Shown one piece after another: positions 35,545-39,151 of a DNA stretch of 64,000 nt. How positions within the stretch are numbered: the first letter of the stretch is position 1; the number at the start of each line of letters is the position of its first letter. Source of the DNA: Candidatus Babeliales bacterium (GTDB taxonomy: Bacteria > Babelota > Babeliae > Babelales > Vermiphilaceae); assembly GCA_963743635.1 (NCBI GenBank), contig CAVUQO010000002.1:268110-332109 (forward strand), in the 5' to 3' direction. The notes under the pieces were generated by a model. That model was not told the origin of the DNA, made no database searches, and saw nothing but the letters and a program-made list of their open reading frames with translations. A program made the position numbers and the translations under genes.

Positions 35545-36789
35545 ATGAATAAAAGAACTCAATTATTAAAGGTTATGATGTTCAATCTCCTTGTATGGAC
35601 TCAAATGCAGGGGATGGACGCAGGCTCTTCTTTTACTGAACCTGAACAATATATAAAAAATTTTAATGAACGATATTTTCCTCGTAGGACTGAAGAGGAA
35701 AAAGCGCTAGAAGCGCTCGCAGATGGAATAGACAATCCATATCGTTTTGGACCTATTGCCATTGATCGAATAACTGCACAAGATCTTGCTGATATAGAAG
35801 GTTTAAAAGAAGGTGAATCTCTCTTTCATATGGAATCCCGTATTAGAACGTATGTAGAAAAGCGAACGCTCATGGCAAAAGCGGGGCGACAACGATGGTA
35901 TGATAAGTTCATGGATTGGGATTGCAACGAACCAGACCGTGATGAGCATCTTATAAATTGTATTTTTGGAGCGGCTATTCGTAGAGAGGATGTTCCTCTT
36001 GCAAAAGATTTACTTAAGCATGGCACAAATCCCAATAAAGACATACAGCTGCGCTGTGGTTATCGAGGGCAGCCTATTTTTGAAGTTATGACAGTACCAA
36101 TGCTTGATTTATTGGTTTCTCATGGAGTCGATCTTGATAAGCCTAATAGATATTATGGACCTGGATATTATCCACCACCTGGATATGAAGTATCTCTCGT
36201 GCATCATGTAGTTGCATATAGGTCACCAGAAATTTTGGAGCGATTGCTTCAATGTCCAGGAGTTAACGTCAATGCCCGAAGGAACCCAGAAGCTAACTTC
36301 ACTGGTCCAACGAGAAACGATCTTCCAGCTTCATACAGGCTTCCACCTTCATACAGGAGTGATATTAAGGACACGCCATTGCATGTATGGGCTAAGCTGT
36401 CCCCTTTTAAGTCGAAGTTTCTGGGTATACAAAAGCAGTTAATGAGTTTAATACGCGCCGGTGCCGATGTGACCTTAAAAAATAGCGAAAATTACACAGC
36501 GCTTGATATTCTTCGCTCAAAGCTTGCAGATCCTTATGAATACGAGATGCAAATAGTAGTCCAACTCGTCGCCCAACTCGCTGCTTTAATGCCTCCACAG
36601 CCTCAAGCAGATATTGCAAGAAAGGCAGTAGTCGCCACAGAGGAATCAGCCTGCGTTATTTGCTTGGAAAATTTTCAACAATCTGATGATCGCACTACAT
36701 TACCATGCGCACATGTATTTCATACGGCGTGTGTAAATCCCTGGATTGCATCAAACAGCACATGCCCTACTTGTAGAACTGCGATATAG
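35545..36789 (+). CDS. ankyrin-repeat protein with a C-terminal RING-H2 finger (E3 ubiquitin-ligase-like), paralogue 1
   Basis: 414 aa. N-terminus MNKRTQLLKVMMFNLLVWTQMQG, ANK-like units (DTPLHVWAK...LIRAGADVTLKNSENYTALDILR) and the RING-H2 CVICLENFQQSDDRTTLPCAHVFHTACVNPWIASNSTCPTCR. Confidence 0.85.
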   Translation: MNKRTQLLKVMMFNLLVWTQMQGMDAGSSFTEPEQYIKNFNERYFPRRTEEEKALEALADGIDNPYRFGPIAIDRITAQDLADIEGLKEGESLFHMESRIRTYVEKRTLMAKAGRQRWYDKFMDWDCNEPDRDEHLINCIFGAAIRREDVPLAKDLLKHGTNPNKDIQLRCGYRGQPIFEVMTVPMLDLLVSHGVDLDKPNRYYGPGYYPPPGYEVSLVHHVVAYRSPEILERLLQCPGVNVNARRNPEANFTGPTRNDLPASYRLPPSYRSDIKDTPLHVWAKLSPFKSKFLGIQKQLMSLIRAGADVTLKNSENYTALDILRSKLADPYEYEMQIVVQLVAQLAALMPPQPQADIARKAVVATEESACVICLENFQQSDDRTTLPCAHVFHTACVNPWIASNSTCPTCRTAI

Positions 36790-36796
36790 ATCTATA

Positions 36797-36848
36797 CCGT
36801 CGGCGCGGAATCATCCACAAGTCTAATCTCAATGTGGTTGATCGATGG
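36797..36848. repeat. copy b of the conserved ~45-nt element
   Basis: CCGTCGGCGCGGAATCATCCACAAGTCTAATCTCAATGTGGTTGATCGATGG, starting 8 nt after the stop of RING gene 1. Confidence 0.85.
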
Positions 36849-36998
36849 ATATTGTTCTAATCTTCCATAGAAAAATACTTTATCTTTCAGCGATATAGTA
36901 CACCTGTATACATGCTTTTTGCACTCAAAACCTTTTTATATTTGGGATATTAAGATATACTCATGGGCGCTATATTTTTGCAGTGAAGGTACCACATT

Positions 36999-38090
36999 AT
37001 GAATAAAAGAACTCAGTTATTAAAGGTTATGATGTTCAATCTCCTTGTATGGACTCAAATGCAGGGGATGGACACTGATTCTTCTTTTACTGAAGAGGAA
37101 AAAGCGCTCCAAGCGCTCGAAGATGGAACAGGCAATCCATATCGTTTTGGACCTATTGCCATTGATCGAATAACCGCACAAGATCTTGCTGATATAGAAG
37201 ATTTAAAAGAACGTTATTCTCGCTATCTTATGACATTCGATATTAGAACGTATGTAGAAAAGCGAACGCTCATGGCAAAAGCGGGGCGACAACGATGGTA
37301 TGATAAGTTCATGGATTGGGATTGCAACGAACCAGACCGTTATAAGCCTCTTATAGATAAGATTTTTGAAGCGGCTCTTAGTAGAGAGGATCTTCCTCTT
37401 GCAAAAGATTTATTTAAGCATGGCGCGTATCCCAATGAACGCATAGCGCGGGGGCCTTTTTTGGGAGTTAGAACAGTACCGATGCTTGATTTATTGATTT
37501 CTCATGGAGTCGATATTGATAAGACTGGATGTAATCTACCTATCGTGCATAATGCAGTTGCATATGACTCACCAAAATTTTTGGAGCGATTGCTTCAATG
37601 CCCAGGAGTTAACGTCAATGCCCGAAGTAACCCTGGTCGAATGAAAGACGTTTTTGAATGGAGGCAAGATTTTGAGGACACGCCATTGCATGTATGGGCT
37701 AAGCTGTGCCCTTGGGAGTCGCGGTTTCCGGGTATACAAAAGAAGTTAATGATTTTAATACGCGCCGGTGCCGATGTGACCTTAAAAAATAGCAAGAATC
37801 ACACAGCGCTTGATATTCTTCGCTCACATATTGCAGATCGTACATATTGTGTAATGCTGCGCGAACTCGCCGACCAACTCGCTGCTTTAATGCCTCCACA
37901 GCCTCAAGCAGATATTGCAAGAAAGGCAGTAGTCGCCACAGAGGAATCAGCCTGCGTTATTTGCTTGGAAAATTTTCAACAATCTGATGATCGCACTACA
38001 TTACCATGCGCACATGTATTTCATACGGCGTGTGTAAATCCCTGGATTGCATCAAACCGCACATGCCCTACTTGTAGAACTGCGATATAG
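36999..38090 (+). CDS. ankyrin-repeat protein with a C-terminal RING-H2 finger, paralogue 2
   Basis: 363 aa. Its first ~25 aa and last ~70 aa are essentially identical to paralogue 1, while the middle is diverged and carries indels. Confidence 0.85.
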   Translation: MNKRTQLLKVMMFNLLVWTQMQGMDTDSSFTEEEKALQALEDGTGNPYRFGPIAIDRITAQDLADIEDLKERYSRYLMTFDIRTYVEKRTLMAKAGRQRWYDKFMDWDCNEPDRYKPLIDKIFEAALSREDLPLAKDLFKHGAYPNERIARGPFLGVRTVPMLDLLISHGVDIDKTGCNLPIVHNAVAYDSPKFLERLLQCPGVNVNARSNPGRMKDVFEWRQDFEDTPLHVWAKLCPWESRFPGIQKKLMILIRAGADVTLKNSKNHTALDILRSHIADRTYCVMLRELADQLAALMPPQPQADIARKAVVATEESACVICLENFQQSDDRTTLPCAHVFHTACVNPWIASNRTCPTCRTAI

Positions 38091-38096
38091 ATCTAC

Positions 38097-38149
38097 ATCG
38101 TCGGCGCGGAATCATCCACAAGTCTAATCTCAATGTGGTTGATCGATGG
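38097..38149. repeat. copy c of the conserved ~45-nt element
   Basis: ATCGTCGGCGCGGAATCATCCACAAGTCTAATCTCAATGTGGTTGATCGATGG, just after the stop of RING gene 2. Confidence 0.85.
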
Positions 38150-38296
38150 ATATTGTTCTAATCTTCCATAGCAAAATACTTTATCTTTTAGTGGCATTAA
38201 TATCTGTACACATGTCTTTTTTGCATTCAAAGCATTTTGTATTTGGGGATTATGGTATGCTAATAGACGTATTTTTTGAAACGAAAGAGATTATAT

Positions 38297-39151
38297 ATGA
38301 ATAAAAAAATGCAGTGGATAGCGGTGATGTGCATTGGGTTTTTGACGGGGTGCGTAAGCGCTATGAATGATCGTGGCATGCACTGGGCATGTTTTAACGA
38401 TGATCATGATCAAGCTCAGGAATTACTAAACGAAAGTAAAAATAGTGTCCATAATTTTACCTTGAACAATGTAGAAATCAGATCTATACCCGTTCTCTTT
38501 TTTGCCAAATCAATTAAGATTGCGGATTTATTAATGCGATATGGTGCGGATCCATATCAGGTAGCTACTTATTATCCCCATGGTGGTGAAACTATTATTC
38601 ATAATTCAATGAGCGCAGATTATTCGATTCCACTTTTGAAACATTATATTGATACTGTACGAATTAATATCAATACAACCACAGCAAATAAAGATACCCC
38701 CTTGCATTATTGGGCACGTTCATCACTTTTTACGTCATCACATTATTTAGGTGTGCAGCCGTATTCAGGGTATTTATCTATCGCACAAGAAAAATTAAAG
38801 ATACTCATCGCAGCGGGGGCAAATACAATGCTCAAAAATGCTACGGGGGATACAGCTTTGGATGTTCTCCGACGAAAAAAACTTTCATATATTGACAGGC
38901 TTCCTGTTACAAAGCAAGAGCGTGAATTGCGAAATGAGGCTTTTGACATACTTGCTCTGCTGCTTAATGCGGCAACAAGAAAACAAATTGCAAGCATGCC
39001 AGAACAGCCTTTTTGTGTTATTTGTCAGGGCGAGCTTGAAGAATCTGATGATCGCACTAGATTACCTTGTACACATGTATTTCATATGACGTGTATAAAT
39101 AGCTGGATTACATTAAACGGAATTTGTCCTACTTGTAGAAGAGAAGTATGA
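38297..39151 (+). CDS. ankyrin-repeat protein with a C-terminal RING-H2 finger, paralogue 3 (possible lipoprotein)
   Basis: ATG 38297 gives MNKKMQWIAVMCIGFLTGCVSA, with the lipobox-like LTGC. ANK-like units (DTPLHYWAR...LIAAGANTMLKNATGDTALDVLR) and the RING-H2 CVICQGELEESDDRTRLPCTHVFHMTCINSWITLNGICPTCR. Confidence 0.8.
   Translation: MNKKMQWIAVMCIGFLTGCVSAMNDRGMHWACFNDDHDQAQELLNESKNSVHNFTLNNVEIRSIPVLFFAKSIKIADLLMRYGADPYQVATYYPHGGETIIHNSMSADYSIPLLKHYIDTVRININTTTANKDTPLHYWARSSLFTSSHYLGVQPYSGYLSIAQEKLKILIAAGANTMLKNATGDTALDVLRRKKLSYIDRLPVTKQERELRNEAFDILALLLNAATRKQIASMPEQPFCVICQGELEESDDRTRLPCTHVFHMTCINSWITLNGICPTCRREV

What the first reader, a model, noticed from the sequence alone, without database searches (positions are those of the whole stretch)
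35545..39151. Tandem array of three ankyrin + RING-H2 paralogues (E3-ligase-like effectors)
Three consecutive same-strand genes (35545-36789, 36999-38090, 38297-39151) share one architecture. Each has a hydrophobic N-terminus, ankyrin-like repeats and a canonical C3H2C3 RING-H2 finger at the extreme C-terminus. In genes 1 and 2 the finger is CVICLENFQQSDDRTTLPCAHVFHTACVNPWIASN(S/R)TCPTCR. In gene 3 it is CVICQGELEESDDRTRLPCTHVFHMTCINSWITLNGICPTCR.

RING-H2 fingers of this spacing are typical of eukaryotic (ATL/RNF-type) ligases. ANK repeats would supply substrate binding. Paralogue 3 has a lipobox-like LTGC after its signal sequence, so it may be targeted differently from 1 and 2.

Together with the RBR gene at 4897, the window encodes four ubiquitin-ligase-like proteins of two mechanistic classes.
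Basis: partly seen in the sequence, partly recalled or inferred. Interest (0 to 1): 0.8.

Follow-up and report, generated by a model that had tools for sequence, protein, structure and literature searches.

The report
Secreted ankyrin–RING ligase gene array
An intracellular bacterial parasite of protists (phylum Dependentiae) carries three neighbouring genes for exported proteins that pair a fast-evolving ankyrin target-binding domain with a eukaryote-type RING-H2 ubiquitin-ligase finger, most likely to tag host proteins with ubiquitin; this is an expected kind of effector, but this fusion and its pattern of evolution have not been described.

Summary
Three same-strand genes (35545-36789, 36999-38090, 38297-39151) each encode a Sec-type signal peptide, about five ankyrin repeats and a canonical C3H2C3 RING-H2 at the extreme C-terminus. 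The RING scores 47-53 bits on Pfam zf-RING_2 (cut-off 27.3). It aligns without gaps to Arkadia, RNF165 and RNF38 and keeps all E2-contact residues.

The host genome is a Candidatus Dependentiae (TM6/Babeliales) bacterium. The array sits in a ~28 kb variable island that is missing from this site in the closest relative.

The genes belong to a small family of secreted ankyrin proteins that occur with or without the RING. It was traced only to metagenomic contigs, those with markers being relatives of this genome.

Genes 1 and 2 are recent duplicates (dS ~0.05). Their ankyrin region has dN/dS 3.5-5.3 (p = 0.0015). Their linker, RING and downstream intergenic DNA are 98% identical. All three genes share a ~210 nt upstream element.

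The most likely function is an exported, host-directed E3 ligase with diversifying substrate specificity. Activity, export route and targets are inferred, not shown. The lipobox in gene 3 is not conserved in its orthologue.

This is a new variant of a known kind of effector; interest is moderate.

The parts
29289..57231 (.). Variable ~27.9 kb host-interaction island that contains the array
   Evidence: The flanking core genes (316-aa gene at 28338-29288; DUF502 gene at 57232-57879) are 90% and 88% identical to genes that lie only ~0.9 kb apart in the closest relative, L004 (PNPase 94%). The 90% relative (L005/L006) has different content at this site. The island encodes an APH kinase, abhydrolases, TPR, SAP, ANK, beta-propeller, MarR, O-methyltransferase, NUDIX, M15 and M48 proteins and many proteins with signal-peptide-like N-termini.
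35331..35544 (+). Conserved upstream element, copy 1 (putative promoter/5'-UTR of gene 1)
   Evidence: Three-way alignment of the upstream regions gives 78% mean column identity. The 30-nt core occurs only at these three sites in the window, with 0 expected by chance. The proximal ~140 nt is conserved in L001. No Rfam match.
35545..36789 (+). Gene 1, 414 aa: signal peptide (residues 1-23), DPYRFGP/NRTLMAKA N-domain, ankyrin stack (about 35944-36588), helical linker, RING-H2
36652..36774 (+). RING-H2 finger of gene 1 (C3H2C3)
   Evidence: Regex scan. zf-RING_2 53.5 bits. Gapless alignment to Arkadia 2kiz at E 4e-11.
36563..36862 (+). 'Constant' block, copy 1: linker + RING + 73 nt of downstream intergenic DNA
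   Evidence: 98% identical over 300 nt to 37864-38163, against ~86-93% for the rest of the gene pair. There are no synonymous differences in the last 69 codons.
36791..36998 (+). Conserved upstream element, copy 2
36999..38090 (+). Gene 2, 363 aa: recent duplicate of gene 1 with derived loop deletions; ankyrin stack about 37344-37889
   Evidence: dS ~0.05. The ankyrin region has dN/dS 3.3-5.3. Deletions were polarised with the L001 outgroup. AlphaFold model pLDDT 85.3.
37953..38075 (+). RING-H2 finger of gene 2
37864..38163 (+). 'Constant' block, copy 2
38092..38296 (+). Conserved upstream element, copy 3
   Evidence: Its last ~40 nt are also kept in front of the gene-3 orthologue in L001.
38297..39151 (+). 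Gene 3, 284 aa: signal peptide (VSA|M; non-conserved LTGC), ankyrin stack (about 38378-38950), helical linker, RING-H2; lacks the DPYRFGP N-domain
   Evidence: The orthologue is L001:3975-4913 (dN/dS 0.46).
39014..39136 (+). RING-H2 finger of gene 3
   Evidence: 79% nucleotide identity to the gene 1 RING.
39148..40053 (+). Downstream gene (301 aa, signal peptide, no Pfam domain) whose ATG overlaps the stop codon of gene 3 (ATGA); possible operon partner
   Evidence: A homologue (31% over 347 aa, E 1e-37) lies directly upstream of a RING-less family member in L127.
40062..40319 (-). Remnant of an AlaX-like gene; synteny anchor to the L001 locus
   Evidence: The last 34 aa are 79% identical to L001:4917-5570 (tRNA_SAD).
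4897..6192 (+). Separate RBR-type (RING-IBR-IBR) E3-like gene mentioned in the finding; it also has a signal peptide
   Evidence: Pfam IBR_2 50.6, IBR 49.6 and zf-RING_UBOX 29.6 bits. N-terminus MKFITQLVLVSMVLTGQSISA|MS.

Best explanation
**What it is.** The three genes encode Sec-exported effector proteins of an obligate intracellular Dependentiae (Babeliales) bacterium. They act as single-chain RING-type ubiquitin ligases on host proteins.

**How it works.**
- After signal-peptide cleavage (x-A/G|M) and release into the host cell, the C-terminal RING-H2 binds zinc. It recruits a host E2~ubiquitin conjugate of the UbcH5/Ube2D type used by Arkadia and RNF38.
- The five-repeat ankyrin stack holds a host substrate. 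In genes 1 and 2 a helical N-domain extends the stack.
- A helical linker positions the RING so that ubiquitin is transferred to the bound protein.

**How it evolves.** The locus behaves as a cassette. A conserved upstream element and a conserved linker + RING 3' end are kept alike among copies, probably by gene conversion. They flank an ankyrin region that diversifies after duplication under positive selection, giving paralogues with one E2 interface and different targets.

**Shown:** domain identities, conservation of the E2-contact residues, duplication history, selection pattern, island location.

**Inferred:** export to the host cytosol, zinc and E2 binding, ligase activity, substrate role of the ankyrin domain.
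For: **Organism and lifestyle.**
- The best named PNPase hits are Candidatus Dependentiae/Babeliales at 65-69% identity.
- In this phylum 63-78% of ankyrin proteins carry signal peptides and are considered secreted into the host (PMC4378268, PMC6561590).

**RING.**
- zf-RING_2 scores 47-53 bits against a 27.3 cut-off.
- phmmer against PDB sequences gives Arkadia at 4e-11, then RNF165, RNF13, ZNRF3, RLIM and RNF38. The 48-residue alignment has no gaps and conserves all 8 ligands.
- It also conserves the Ile of CxIC, the Trp, the Pro of CPxC and the Arg after the last Cys. From structural work on c-Cbl, RNF4, BIRC7 and RNF38 (my own knowledge), these are the E2-contact and 'linchpin' positions.
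- Predicted beta-beta-alpha topology, with 10-residue block means of pLDDT 86-96 over the finger (residues ~321-363).

**Ankyrin domain.** Profile hits to multi-ANK proteins. Foldseek matches DARPins at TM 0.80-0.86, and also HIP14, Shank3 and ASB9.

**Signal peptides.** They are conserved family-wide.

**Functional constraint.** Orthologue comparisons give dN/dS 0.44-0.54 at dS 0.44-0.97, so the genes are maintained.

**Diversification.**
- Genes 1 and 2 have dS ~0.05.
- The ankyrin region has dN/dS 3.3 by my own NG86 script (Fisher p = 0.0015) and 3.5-5.3 across four Biopython estimators.
- Differences by codon position are 36/25/14.
- Both copies are derived, and at 41 of 78 variable sites all three sequences differ.

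**Constant parts.**
- The 300-nt linker + RING + intergenic block is 98% identical.
- RING-end dS is lower than ANK dS in an independent genome: L002 0.14 against 0.50, p = 0.003; pooled p = 8e-5.
- The shared upstream element is documented.

**Context.** A variable island with other eukaryote-like domain proteins. Tandem or segmental arrays of the same family also occur in L001 and L002.
Against: - No experiment shows secretion, zinc binding, E2 binding or ligase activity.
- A Sec signal peptide delivers the unfolded protein only to the periplasm. How it would cross the outer membrane, and any host membrane, is unknown for this phylum. Eight Cys/His ligands could be oxidised on the way.
- The signal peptide of genes 1 and 2 is the weakest in the family: Lys inside the hydrophobic core and Met at -3.
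- No signal-peptide predictor was available.
- The dN/dS signal rests on one gene pair and few synonymous changes (about 6 of 131 sites).
- The assembly shows frameshift errors elsewhere (rpoB/rpoC, murA).
- Gene 1/gene 2 substitutions are not enriched in loops over helices (p = 0.76), so no binding surface was pinpointed.
Confidence: 0.68

Rival explanations
1. The proteins stay in the bacterial envelope: periplasmic, or for gene 3 a lipoprotein anchored by the LTGC cysteine. The Cys/His-rich C-terminus then serves as a zinc-binding or disulfide-stabilised structural or interaction module unrelated to ubiquitin. The ankyrin stack would bind bacterial or surface-exposed partners.
For: - A Sec-type signal peptide by itself predicts only export across the inner membrane.
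- A lipobox-like L-T-G-C is present in gene 3.
- No T3SS or T4SS signal or gene is evident in the window.
Against: - The residues conserved beyond the metal ligands are exactly those that contact E2~Ub in eukaryotic RING-H2 ligases: Ile, Trp, Pro and the linchpin Arg. A purely structural zinc knot has no reason to keep them.
- The lipobox Cys is absent in the orthologue (LLTERV), while VSA|M is kept.
- The RBR protein in the same window, also of a ubiquitin-specific class, carries the same kind of signal peptide.
- The Babela and Chromulinavorax genome papers interpret signal-peptide-bearing ankyrin proteins as secreted into the host (PMC4378268, PMC6561590).
Confidence: 0.1
2. The proteins reach the host but do not ubiquitinate ankyrin-bound substrates. 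Instead they act as E2 traps or decoys that titrate host E2~Ub. Alternatively they are self-ubiquitinating timers or meta-effectors that target other bacterial effectors, as LubX targets SidH.
For: - The RING is the most conserved and homogenised part, as expected if E2 engagement is the key function.
- Meta-effector E3s are known in Legionella (PMC7542358).
- A conserved neighbouring secreted gene (39148-40053) accompanies family members in two genomes.
Against: - Strong positive selection on the ankyrin region is better explained by an arms race with variable host targets than by a pure E2 sponge.
- RING-less members of the same ankyrin family exist, so the ankyrin module has a binding role of its own.
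Confidence: 0.14
3. One or more copies are decaying duplicates. The excess of non-synonymous change between genes 1 and 2 would reflect relaxed constraint, or assembly and consensus errors in a tandem repeat, and not adaptive diversification. The array would have no specialised function beyond one working copy.
For: - The assembly contains frameshifted essential genes (rpoB/rpoC, murA).
- Gene 2 has several loop deletions relative to gene 1 and the outgroup.
- The closest relative lacks the island at this site.
Against: - Relaxation drives dN/dS towards 1, not to 3.5-5.3. The excess over 1 is significant (p = 0.0015).
- All indels are in frame and both ORFs are intact from signal peptide to RING.
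- Long-read errors are mainly indels, not 10% substitutions concentrated at first and second codon positions.
- Both copies carry derived changes.
- The upstream elements are intact.
Confidence: 0.06
4. The genes are eukaryotic (host) DNA mis-binned or mis-assembled into a bacterial contig.
For: The RING-only hits outside the family are eukaryotic proteins, for example Guillardia theta at E 5e-5.
Against: - The genes lie on a 594 kb contig between bacterial core genes that are collinear with relatives.
- Their GC content is like the surrounding sequence.
- They have no introns and carry bacterial-type signal peptides.
- Orthologues and paralogues sit on other bacterial contigs next to bacterial genes.
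Confidence: 0.01

Closest known systems
Eukaryotic RING-H2 E3 ligases of the Arkadia/RNF111, RNF165, RNF38, RNF13/ZNRF3 and ATL (EL5) type
   Same: - C3H2C3 ligands with identical spacing.
- Gapless 48-residue alignment at E ~1e-10.
- Conserved Ile, Trp, Pro and linchpin Arg.
- RING at the extreme C-terminus, as in Arkadia and RNF38.
   Different: - Encoded by a bacterium and preceded by a Sec signal peptide.
- The substrate-binding part is an ankyrin stack, not the SIM/NRG-TIER, PA or transmembrane modules of those proteins.
- No similarity outside the RING.
Legionella pneumophila AnkB, poxvirus and Orientia ANK/PRANC (F-box-like) proteins, and pithovirus F-box + ANK proteins
   Same: An intracellular parasite protein that couples an ankyrin substrate-binding domain to the host ubiquitination machinery. 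Giant-virus ANK proteins are the best viral fold matches (PMC7542358).
   Different: - Those proteins use an F-box/PRANC to borrow the host SCF complex (Skp1-Cul1-Rbx1). Here the RING is built in, so the protein should engage E2 directly.
- AnkB is delivered by the Dot/Icm T4SS, not by a Sec signal peptide.
- No F-box was detected here.
Bacterial RING/U-box-type effectors (Legionella LubX, RavN, Lpg2370, MavM; E. coli NleG)
   Same: Bacterial mimics of RING/U-box E3 ligases that use host E2 enzymes (PMC7542358).
   Different: - Those are U-box or highly diverged RING-like folds, often recognisable only by structure or profile-profile comparison, and mostly zinc-free. The present fingers are sequence-canonical zinc RING-H2.
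- The delivery route differs (T3SS or T4SS).
Eukaryotic and viral ANK + RING ligases (plant XB3/XBAT family, animal MIB1/2; Feldmannia virus 'putative ubiquitin ligase/ankyrin repeat protein')
   Same: The same domain order, with N-terminal ankyrin repeats and a C-terminal RING (PMC3596331, from its title and abstract).
   Different: - XB3-like proteins have C3HC4 (RING-HC) fingers. The ankyrin regions are not specifically related.
- The ankyrin module here belongs to a family of secreted proteins traced only to metagenomic contigs, those with markers being close Dependentiae relatives of this genome. Its members also exist without a RING. The architecture therefore probably arose by independent fusion.
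Secreted ankyrin-repeat protein expansions and the single RING-finger protein reported in Dependentiae genomes (Babela massiliensis, Chromulinavorax destructans)
   Same: The same phylum. Signal-peptide-bearing ankyrin proteins occur in genomic islands, and interference with host ubiquitin signalling has been proposed (PMC4378268, PMC6561590).
   Different: Those papers list ankyrin and RING proteins separately. They do not describe an ANK + RING-H2 fusion family, its tandem arrays or its selection pattern.

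Membership tests
RING-H2 zinc finger (Pfam zf-RING_2, PF13639) | Eight metal ligands C-x2-C-x(9-39)-C-x(1-3)-H-x(2-3)-H-x2-C-x(4-48)-C-x2-C | tested here: met
   The regex finds exactly the three C-termini in six frames. The sequences can be read.
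RING-H2 zinc finger (Pfam zf-RING_2, PF13639) | Profile score above the curated gathering threshold | tested here: met
   53.5, 53.0 and 47.1 bits against 27.3. zf-RING_11 and zf-rbx1 are also above their cut-offs.
RING-H2 zinc finger (Pfam zf-RING_2, PF13639) | Homology to domains with a solved cross-brace RING structure | tested here: met
   phmmer against PDB sequences gives Arkadia 2kiz at 4e-11, RNF165 5d0m at 1e-10 and RNF38 4v3k at 2e-9, without gaps. The AlphaFold model shows beta-beta-alpha with 10-residue block means of pLDDT 86-96 over the finger. No explicit superposition of the RING alone was made.
Active RING-type E3 ligase | E2-contact residues (Ile after the first Cys, Trp in the helix, Pro before the last Cys pair) and the linchpin Arg/Lys after the last Cys | tested here: met
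   CvIC, W400, CPtC and R411 (gene 1 numbering) align with the same residues of Arkadia and RNF165. They are invariant in the three genes. Their functional role is taken from the published structural literature (my own knowledge).
Active RING-type E3 ligase | Zinc binding and E2-dependent ubiquitin transfer | not testable with these tools
   Needs biochemistry.
Ankyrin repeat proteins | Profile match to ankyrin repeat models | tested here: met
   - Gene 1: Ank 29.8 (cut-off 21.1) and Ank_3 26.7 (cut-off 22.3).
- Gene 2: Ank_4 25.4 (cut-off 22.7).
- Gene 3: sub-threshold only.
- The family profile hits 2904 proteins, including giant ANK proteins with up to 21 matched stretches.
Ankyrin repeat proteins | Stacked helix-turn-helix repeat fold | tested here: met
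   Foldseek of the gene 2 model matches DARPins and natural ANK domains at TM (target) 0.80-0.86 and rmsd 1.8-3.1 A over ~180 columns.
Sec-dependent secreted protein | N-terminal n-, h- and c-regions with a signal peptidase I site | tested here: inconclusive
   K/R residues, then a hydrophobic core (max KD10 1.9-3.2), then a small residue followed by Met. This holds in all family members, while housekeeping proteins have no N-terminal hydrophobic core. The test is heuristic only, because no trained predictor was available. Genes 1 and 2 are atypical (Lys in the core, Met at -3).
Bacterial lipoprotein (gene 3) | Lipobox [LVI][ASTVI][GAS]C at the end of the signal peptide, conserved among orthologues | tested here: not met
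   L-T-G-C is present in gene 3, but the orthologue L001:3975 has L-T-E-R at the same place. The downstream VSA|M site is conserved in both. The presence of Lgt and LspA in the genome was not examined.
F-box/PRANC ankyrin effectors (AnkB, poxvirus ANK/PRANC) | F-box or PRANC motif that binds Skp1 | tested here: not met
   No F-box or PRANC family appears in the Pfam scan down to E = 1. The function is analogous, but these genes are not members.
Prokaryotic RING families (Pfam Prok-RING_4) | Score above the family threshold | tested here: not met
   12.5-15.7 bits against a 27-bit cut-off. The finger is of the eukaryotic type.
Diversity-generating retroelement target | Adenine-specific differences between repeat copies, and a nearby reverse transcriptase | tested here: not met
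   The substitution spectrum is not adenine-specific: A 42, G 31, C 23, T 21 in gene 1 and similar in gene 2. No RT domain was found in the Pfam scans of the island genes that were examined.

The most novel reading that the evidence does not exclude
The array is a 'constant/variable' effector cassette system. A private upstream element and a linker + RING-H2 'constant region' are kept homogeneous among copies by gene conversion. The RING-end synonymous-divergence deficit behind this was measured in two genomes (the window and L002). An ankyrin 'variable region' diversifies under strong positive selection after each duplication. RING modules are also swapped between different secreted N-terminal partners, since RING-less ANK genes and stand-alone signal-peptide + RING genes exist. 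This would give a Sec-dependent parasite, with no T3SS or T4SS evident in the window, a rapidly retargetable set of true zinc-RING E3 ligases. It would also imply an unknown route that carries Sec-exported, cysteine-rich proteins into the host cytosol in active form.
Probability: 0.3. Interest if true: 0.65.

Novelty: new variant of a known kind. Interest (0 to 1): 0.45.

Why it matters
Dependentiae are widespread, almost unstudied obligate parasites of protists. Their genomes are full of signal-peptide-bearing ankyrin proteins whose function has been called unknown.

This family gives some of those proteins a concrete, testable biochemical role: single-chain RING-H2 ubiquitin ligases. It also provides a natural set of paralogues in which the E2 module is constant and the presumed target-binding module is under positive selection. 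That combination is useful for finding host targets and for studying host-parasite arms races.

It also sharpens an open question for the phylum: how Sec-exported effectors reach the host cytosol.

It does not change how bacterial ubiquitin mimicry is understood in general.

Tried and rejected
- **First AlphaFold run.** Gene 1 with a 4-sequence alignment gave pLDDT 52.9. It was discarded and no fold search was done on it.
- **Genome-collection search with a protein query.** The search for related loci in genome contigs with gene 2 found no relatives. Two alignment-based attempts failed because no stretch was conserved enough. I replaced them with a hand-made degenerate RING pattern.
- **Third word-indexed homology search.** Using the family profile, it was swamped by generic ankyrin proteins and gave no taxonomy.
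- **Exact look-up of gene 1's contig.** Nothing on record.
- **Promoter and terminator scans.** At background level: 15 promoter-like sites against 16.5 expected, and 5 terminator-like sites against 3.9. No promoter was assigned.
- **Rfam search of 33-41 kb.** Only two chance-level hits, so the upstream element is not a known RNA.
- **Loop-versus-helix test of gene 1/gene 2 substitutions.** No enrichment (p = 0.76).
- **DGR-style mutagenesis.** Rejected on the substitution spectrum.
- **Eukaryotic contamination.** Rejected on synteny.
- **Lipoprotein targeting of gene 3.** Considered unlikely because the Cys is not conserved.
- **Positive selection in older L002 paralogue pairs.** Not seen (omega ~0.5).

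Full report

Yes. The ORF listing returns three + strand ORFs at 35545-36789 (414 aa), 36999-38090 (363 aa) and 38276/38297-39151 (291 aa from the TTG, 284 aa from the ATG). The 284-aa form is the one present in public protein collections. The conserved upstream DNA also runs right up to that ATG.

A six-frame regex scan for a C3H2C3 RING finds only the three C-termini: 36652-36774, 37953-38075 and 39014-39136.

Pfam zf-RING_2 scores 53.5, 53.0 and 47.1 bits against a 27.3 cut-off, with the match ending 3-4 residues before the stop.

Ankyrin signals in Pfam are weak: above cut-off for genes 1 and 2, below for gene 3. Two independent tests settle the point:
- A profile of the non-RING region hits 2904 proteins, including giant ankyrin proteins matched in up to 21 stretches.
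- An AlphaFold model of gene 2 built on a 30-sequence family alignment (pLDDT 85.3, pTM 0.72) superposes on DARPins and natural ankyrin domains at TM 0.80-0.86 and rmsd 1.8-3 A over ~180 columns, which is about five repeats.

The RBR gene at 4897-6192 is also real, with RING + IBR + IBR domains. No further ubiquitin-system domain was found in the other large ORFs.

**2. Whose genome is it?**

The window is bacterial: PNPase, TrpRS, ribosomal proteins and a tRNA cluster. The best named PNPase relatives are Candidatus Dependentiae/Babeliales (TM6) at 65-69% identity. Unnamed metagenomic relatives reach 90-94%.

Dependentiae are obligate intracellular parasites of amoebae and flagellates. The genome papers report:
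- 98-126 ankyrin proteins per genome.
- 63-78% of them with signal peptides, read as Sec-dependent secretion into the host.
- One RING-finger protein, F-box proteins and deubiquitinases.
- Genomic islands of host-interaction genes (PMC4378268, PMC6561590).

**3. Anatomy of the proteins**

All three start with a signal-peptide-like N-terminus: K/R residues, a hydrophobic core, then a small residue followed by Met.

Genes 1 and 2 then have a helical N-domain with the motifs DPYRFGP and NRTLMAKA. Gene 3 lacks it.

Next come the ankyrin stack (signature TPLHxWA ... QKKLxLLxxAGA ... TALDIL), a helical linker and the RING-H2.

The RING aligns without gaps to Arkadia/RNF111 (E 4e-11), RNF165, RNF13, ZNRF3, RLIM, RNF38 and the plant ATL protein EL5. 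Beyond the eight ligands it keeps the Ile of CxIC, the helix Trp, the Pro of CPxC and the Arg directly after the last Cys. In solved E3-E2~Ub complexes of this class these positions contact E2 and ubiquitin; that role is established structural knowledge recalled by me, not tested here.

Prok-RING_4 scores below its threshold, so the finger is of the eukaryotic type. Outside the family, the only sequence hits of full-length gene 1 are eukaryotic RING domains, for example from Guillardia.

**4. The family**

A word-indexed search with gene 1 found only itself, gene 2 and one protein on an 8.3 kb Logan contig, L001.

The exhaustive HMMER search with the non-RING profile showed more: about 27 small (220-430 aa), single-stretch relatives with the same signal peptide and motifs.
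- Some carry a C-terminal RING: P0136, P0141, P0146, P0150, P0154, P0196, P0209.
- Many do not: P0132, P0139, P0143, P0147, P0149, P0157 and others.

Their contigs show recurrent arrays:
- L001 has three members, two of them in tandem in the same order as genes 1/2 and 3.
- L002 has four members in a segmentally duplicated unit.
- L127/L128 have RING-less members next to a separate signal-peptide + RING-H2 gene with a similar linker.

L002 and L127 share 74-81% identical island genes with the window, so they come from related Dependentiae.

A degenerate DNA pattern for H-x-F-H-x2-C-[IV]-x2-W-x6-C-P-x-C matched at least 119 loci in the prokaryotic genome collection. I estimate about 0.1 by chance. 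The loci come mostly from Chlamydiae/Parachlamydiales, Dependentiae/TM6, Endozoicomonas, Cardinium and Fangia. None of the 120 recovered RING ORFs has this family's architecture.

The RING-H2 is therefore common in protist- and host-associated bacteria. The signal peptide-ANK-RING fusion is narrow.

**5. Genomic setting**

In the closest relative (L004, PNPase 94%), the gene order is pnp, rph, a 316-aa gene, then ~0.9 kb later DUF502, glmM and on to trpS. In the window the same anchors are 27.9 kb apart (29289-57231), and the array lies in this insert.

The 90% relative carries other cargo at this site: an abhydrolase plus four tandem kinase-like paralogues with faint UIM hits.

The island also encodes TPR, SAP, ANK and beta-propeller proteins, an APH kinase, hydrolases, peptidases and many small proteins with signal-peptide-like N-termini. 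It is a plasticity zone for host-interaction genes.

**6. Evolutionary dynamics**

Genes 1 and 2 are recent duplicates (dS 0.05-0.07). Their ankyrin region (200 gap-cleaned codons) has 68.8 non-synonymous against 6.2 synonymous differences.
- dN/dS is 3.3 by my own NG86 script (Fisher p = 0.0015).
- The four Biopython estimators give 3.5 (NG86), 4.9 (LWL85), 5.3 (YN00) and 5.1 (ML).
- Differences by codon position are 36/25/14.
- Both copies carry derived changes, and at 41 of 78 variable sites all three sequences, including the L001 outgroup, differ.
- The spectrum is not adenine-biased.

By contrast, the signal peptide and N-terminus give omega ~0.3. The last 69 codons (linker + RING) differ by one nucleotide.

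At the DNA level, a 300-nt block (linker + RING + 73 nt of intergenic DNA) is 98% identical between the two copies, against 86-93% for the rest of the gene pair.

The same deficit of synonymous divergence at the RING end is seen in an independent pair in L002: dS 0.14 against 0.50, p = 0.003. The pooled test gives p = 8e-5. This indicates gene conversion of the 3' ends.

Orthologue comparisons give omega 0.44-0.54: fast-evolving but maintained.

All three genes are preceded by a ~210-nt element. Its three-way column identity is 78%. It is found nowhere else in the window. Its proximal 140 nt are conserved in L001, and it matches no Rfam family. It is probably a shared promoter or 5'-UTR, but consensus promoter scans were uninformative.

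**7. Most likely mechanism**

The genes most likely encode exported, host-directed single-chain RING E3 ligases. The ankyrin stack selects the substrate and the RING-H2 recruits host E2~Ub. Duplication followed by diversifying selection creates new specificities, while the E2 interface and the regulatory region are kept constant.

- Shown: domain identity, conservation of catalytic-interface residues, duplication, selection and conversion patterns, island context.
- Inferred: secretion beyond the periplasm, folding with zinc, activity, targets.

The rivals are an envelope-resident zinc module, an E2 trap or meta-effector, decaying duplicates or assembly artefacts, and eukaryotic contamination. 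They are listed with their evidence in the rival explanations. The last is excluded by synteny.

**8. Comparison with known systems**

- Functionally, the proteins work like AnkB or the poxvirus ANK/PRANC proteins (an ankyrin domain plus a ubiquitin-ligase recruiting module). They have no F-box, so they are not members of that group.
- Their RING is a bona fide member of the eukaryotic RING-H2 class.
- Their domain order parallels plant XB3/XBAT (C3HC4 RING) and a phaeovirus protein. The ankyrin module, however, belongs to a family of secreted proteins that also occurs without a RING, which argues for an independent fusion.
- Known bacterial RING/U-box effectors (LubX, RavN, Lpg2370, MavM) are U-box or remote RING-like and are T4SS-delivered (PMC7542358).

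**9. Caveats**

- The assembly has frameshifts in rpoB/rpoC and murA, so read-level confirmation of the tandem copies is desirable.
- The selection test rests on one pair.
- No trained signal-peptide predictor was available.
- The taxonomy of several family contigs is inferred from shared genes only.

**10. Verdict**

This is a new variant (a secreted ANK + RING-H2 fusion family with cassette-like evolution) of a known kind (eukaryote-like E3 effectors of intracellular bacteria). Interest is moderate, at 0.45.

Noticed in passing
window 15400-24300 (rpoB/rpoC) and 7122-9324 (mscS/murA): The essential genes rpoB and rpoC are broken into many ORFs shorter than 230 aa, although they are collinear with intact genes in L004. 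murA (EPSP_synthase family) is split, with its first ~60 residues fused in frame to the end of the MscS-like ORF. L005 and L006, from the same ENA study, show the same fragmentation. This probably reflects indel errors in a long-read MAG assembly and not pseudogenes.
   Followed up: partly
window 39148-40053 (+): A 301-aa gene with a signal peptide and no Pfam domain. Its ATG overlaps the stop codon of gene 3 (ATGA). A homologue (31% over 347 aa, E 1e-37) lies directly upstream of a RING-less family member in L127 (6906-7985). It may be a conserved partner of the ANK family.
   Followed up: partly
L005 15983-22085 and L006 12289-18810: At the chromosomal site where the window carries its island, the 90% relative has four tandem paralogues of 467-546 aa with EcKL/TCAD9 kinase-like hits and faint UIM (ubiquitin-interacting motif) hits. 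This is another lineage-specific effector-like array at the same hot spot.
   Followed up: no
window 40062-40319 (-): An 85-aa ORF whose last 34 residues are 79% identical to the C-terminus of an AlaX-like (tRNA_SAD) gene in L001, preceded by a new signal-peptide-like N-terminus. It is either a truncated relic or a recycled gene fragment.
   Followed up: partly
window 4897-6192 (+), and family-wide: The RBR-type E3-like protein also has a signal peptide (…GQSISA|MSAK). Nearly all members of the ANK family, and several island neighbours, share a cleavage-site junction of a small residue followed by Met. The reason for the conserved Met at +1 is unexplained.
   Followed up: partly
L127 3306-5495 / L128 3252-5495: A gene-3-type ankyrin gene ends just where the RING would begin. 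The next gene encodes a signal peptide, a W/D/E-rich region, a similar linker and a RING-H2. This suggests fission, fusion or shuffling of the RING module between secreted partners.
   Followed up: partly
L002 1-13397: Four ANK-RING genes in a segmentally duplicated unit: RING gene, a 219-aa minus-strand gene, RING gene, then a run of small ORFs, all repeated twice. One pair is 96% identical and the other 68%. Clusters of 64-82-aa minus-strand ORFs follow each unit.
   Followed up: partly
window 45842-46471 (-), 31950-32918 (-), 54557-55318 (-), 43017-44345 (-): The same island holds other proteins with eukaryote-like domains: SAP domain, TPR, a separate ankyrin protein and a beta-propeller. 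The beta-propeller gene and the adjacent hydrolase gene (44909-45835) are 74% identical to genes in L127.
   Followed up: no
window 34222-35109 (-) and L001 1416-2417 (-): Both loci have, just upstream of the array and divergently oriented, a secreted ~300-aa protein with an HExxH motif (HEKRH and HEMGH). The two are not detectably homologous by BLASTP (E 0.13), and the window protein has no Pfam hit.
   Followed up: partly
window RING loops: gene 1 residues 380-388, with the equivalent residues in genes 2 and 3: All three window RINGs share SDDRT(T/R)LPC between the first and second ligand pairs. The L001 orthologues have SDYRIALSC and SIYDSTALPC instead. This could reflect within-genome concerted evolution of the RING or co-adaptation to one host E2.
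   Followed up: no
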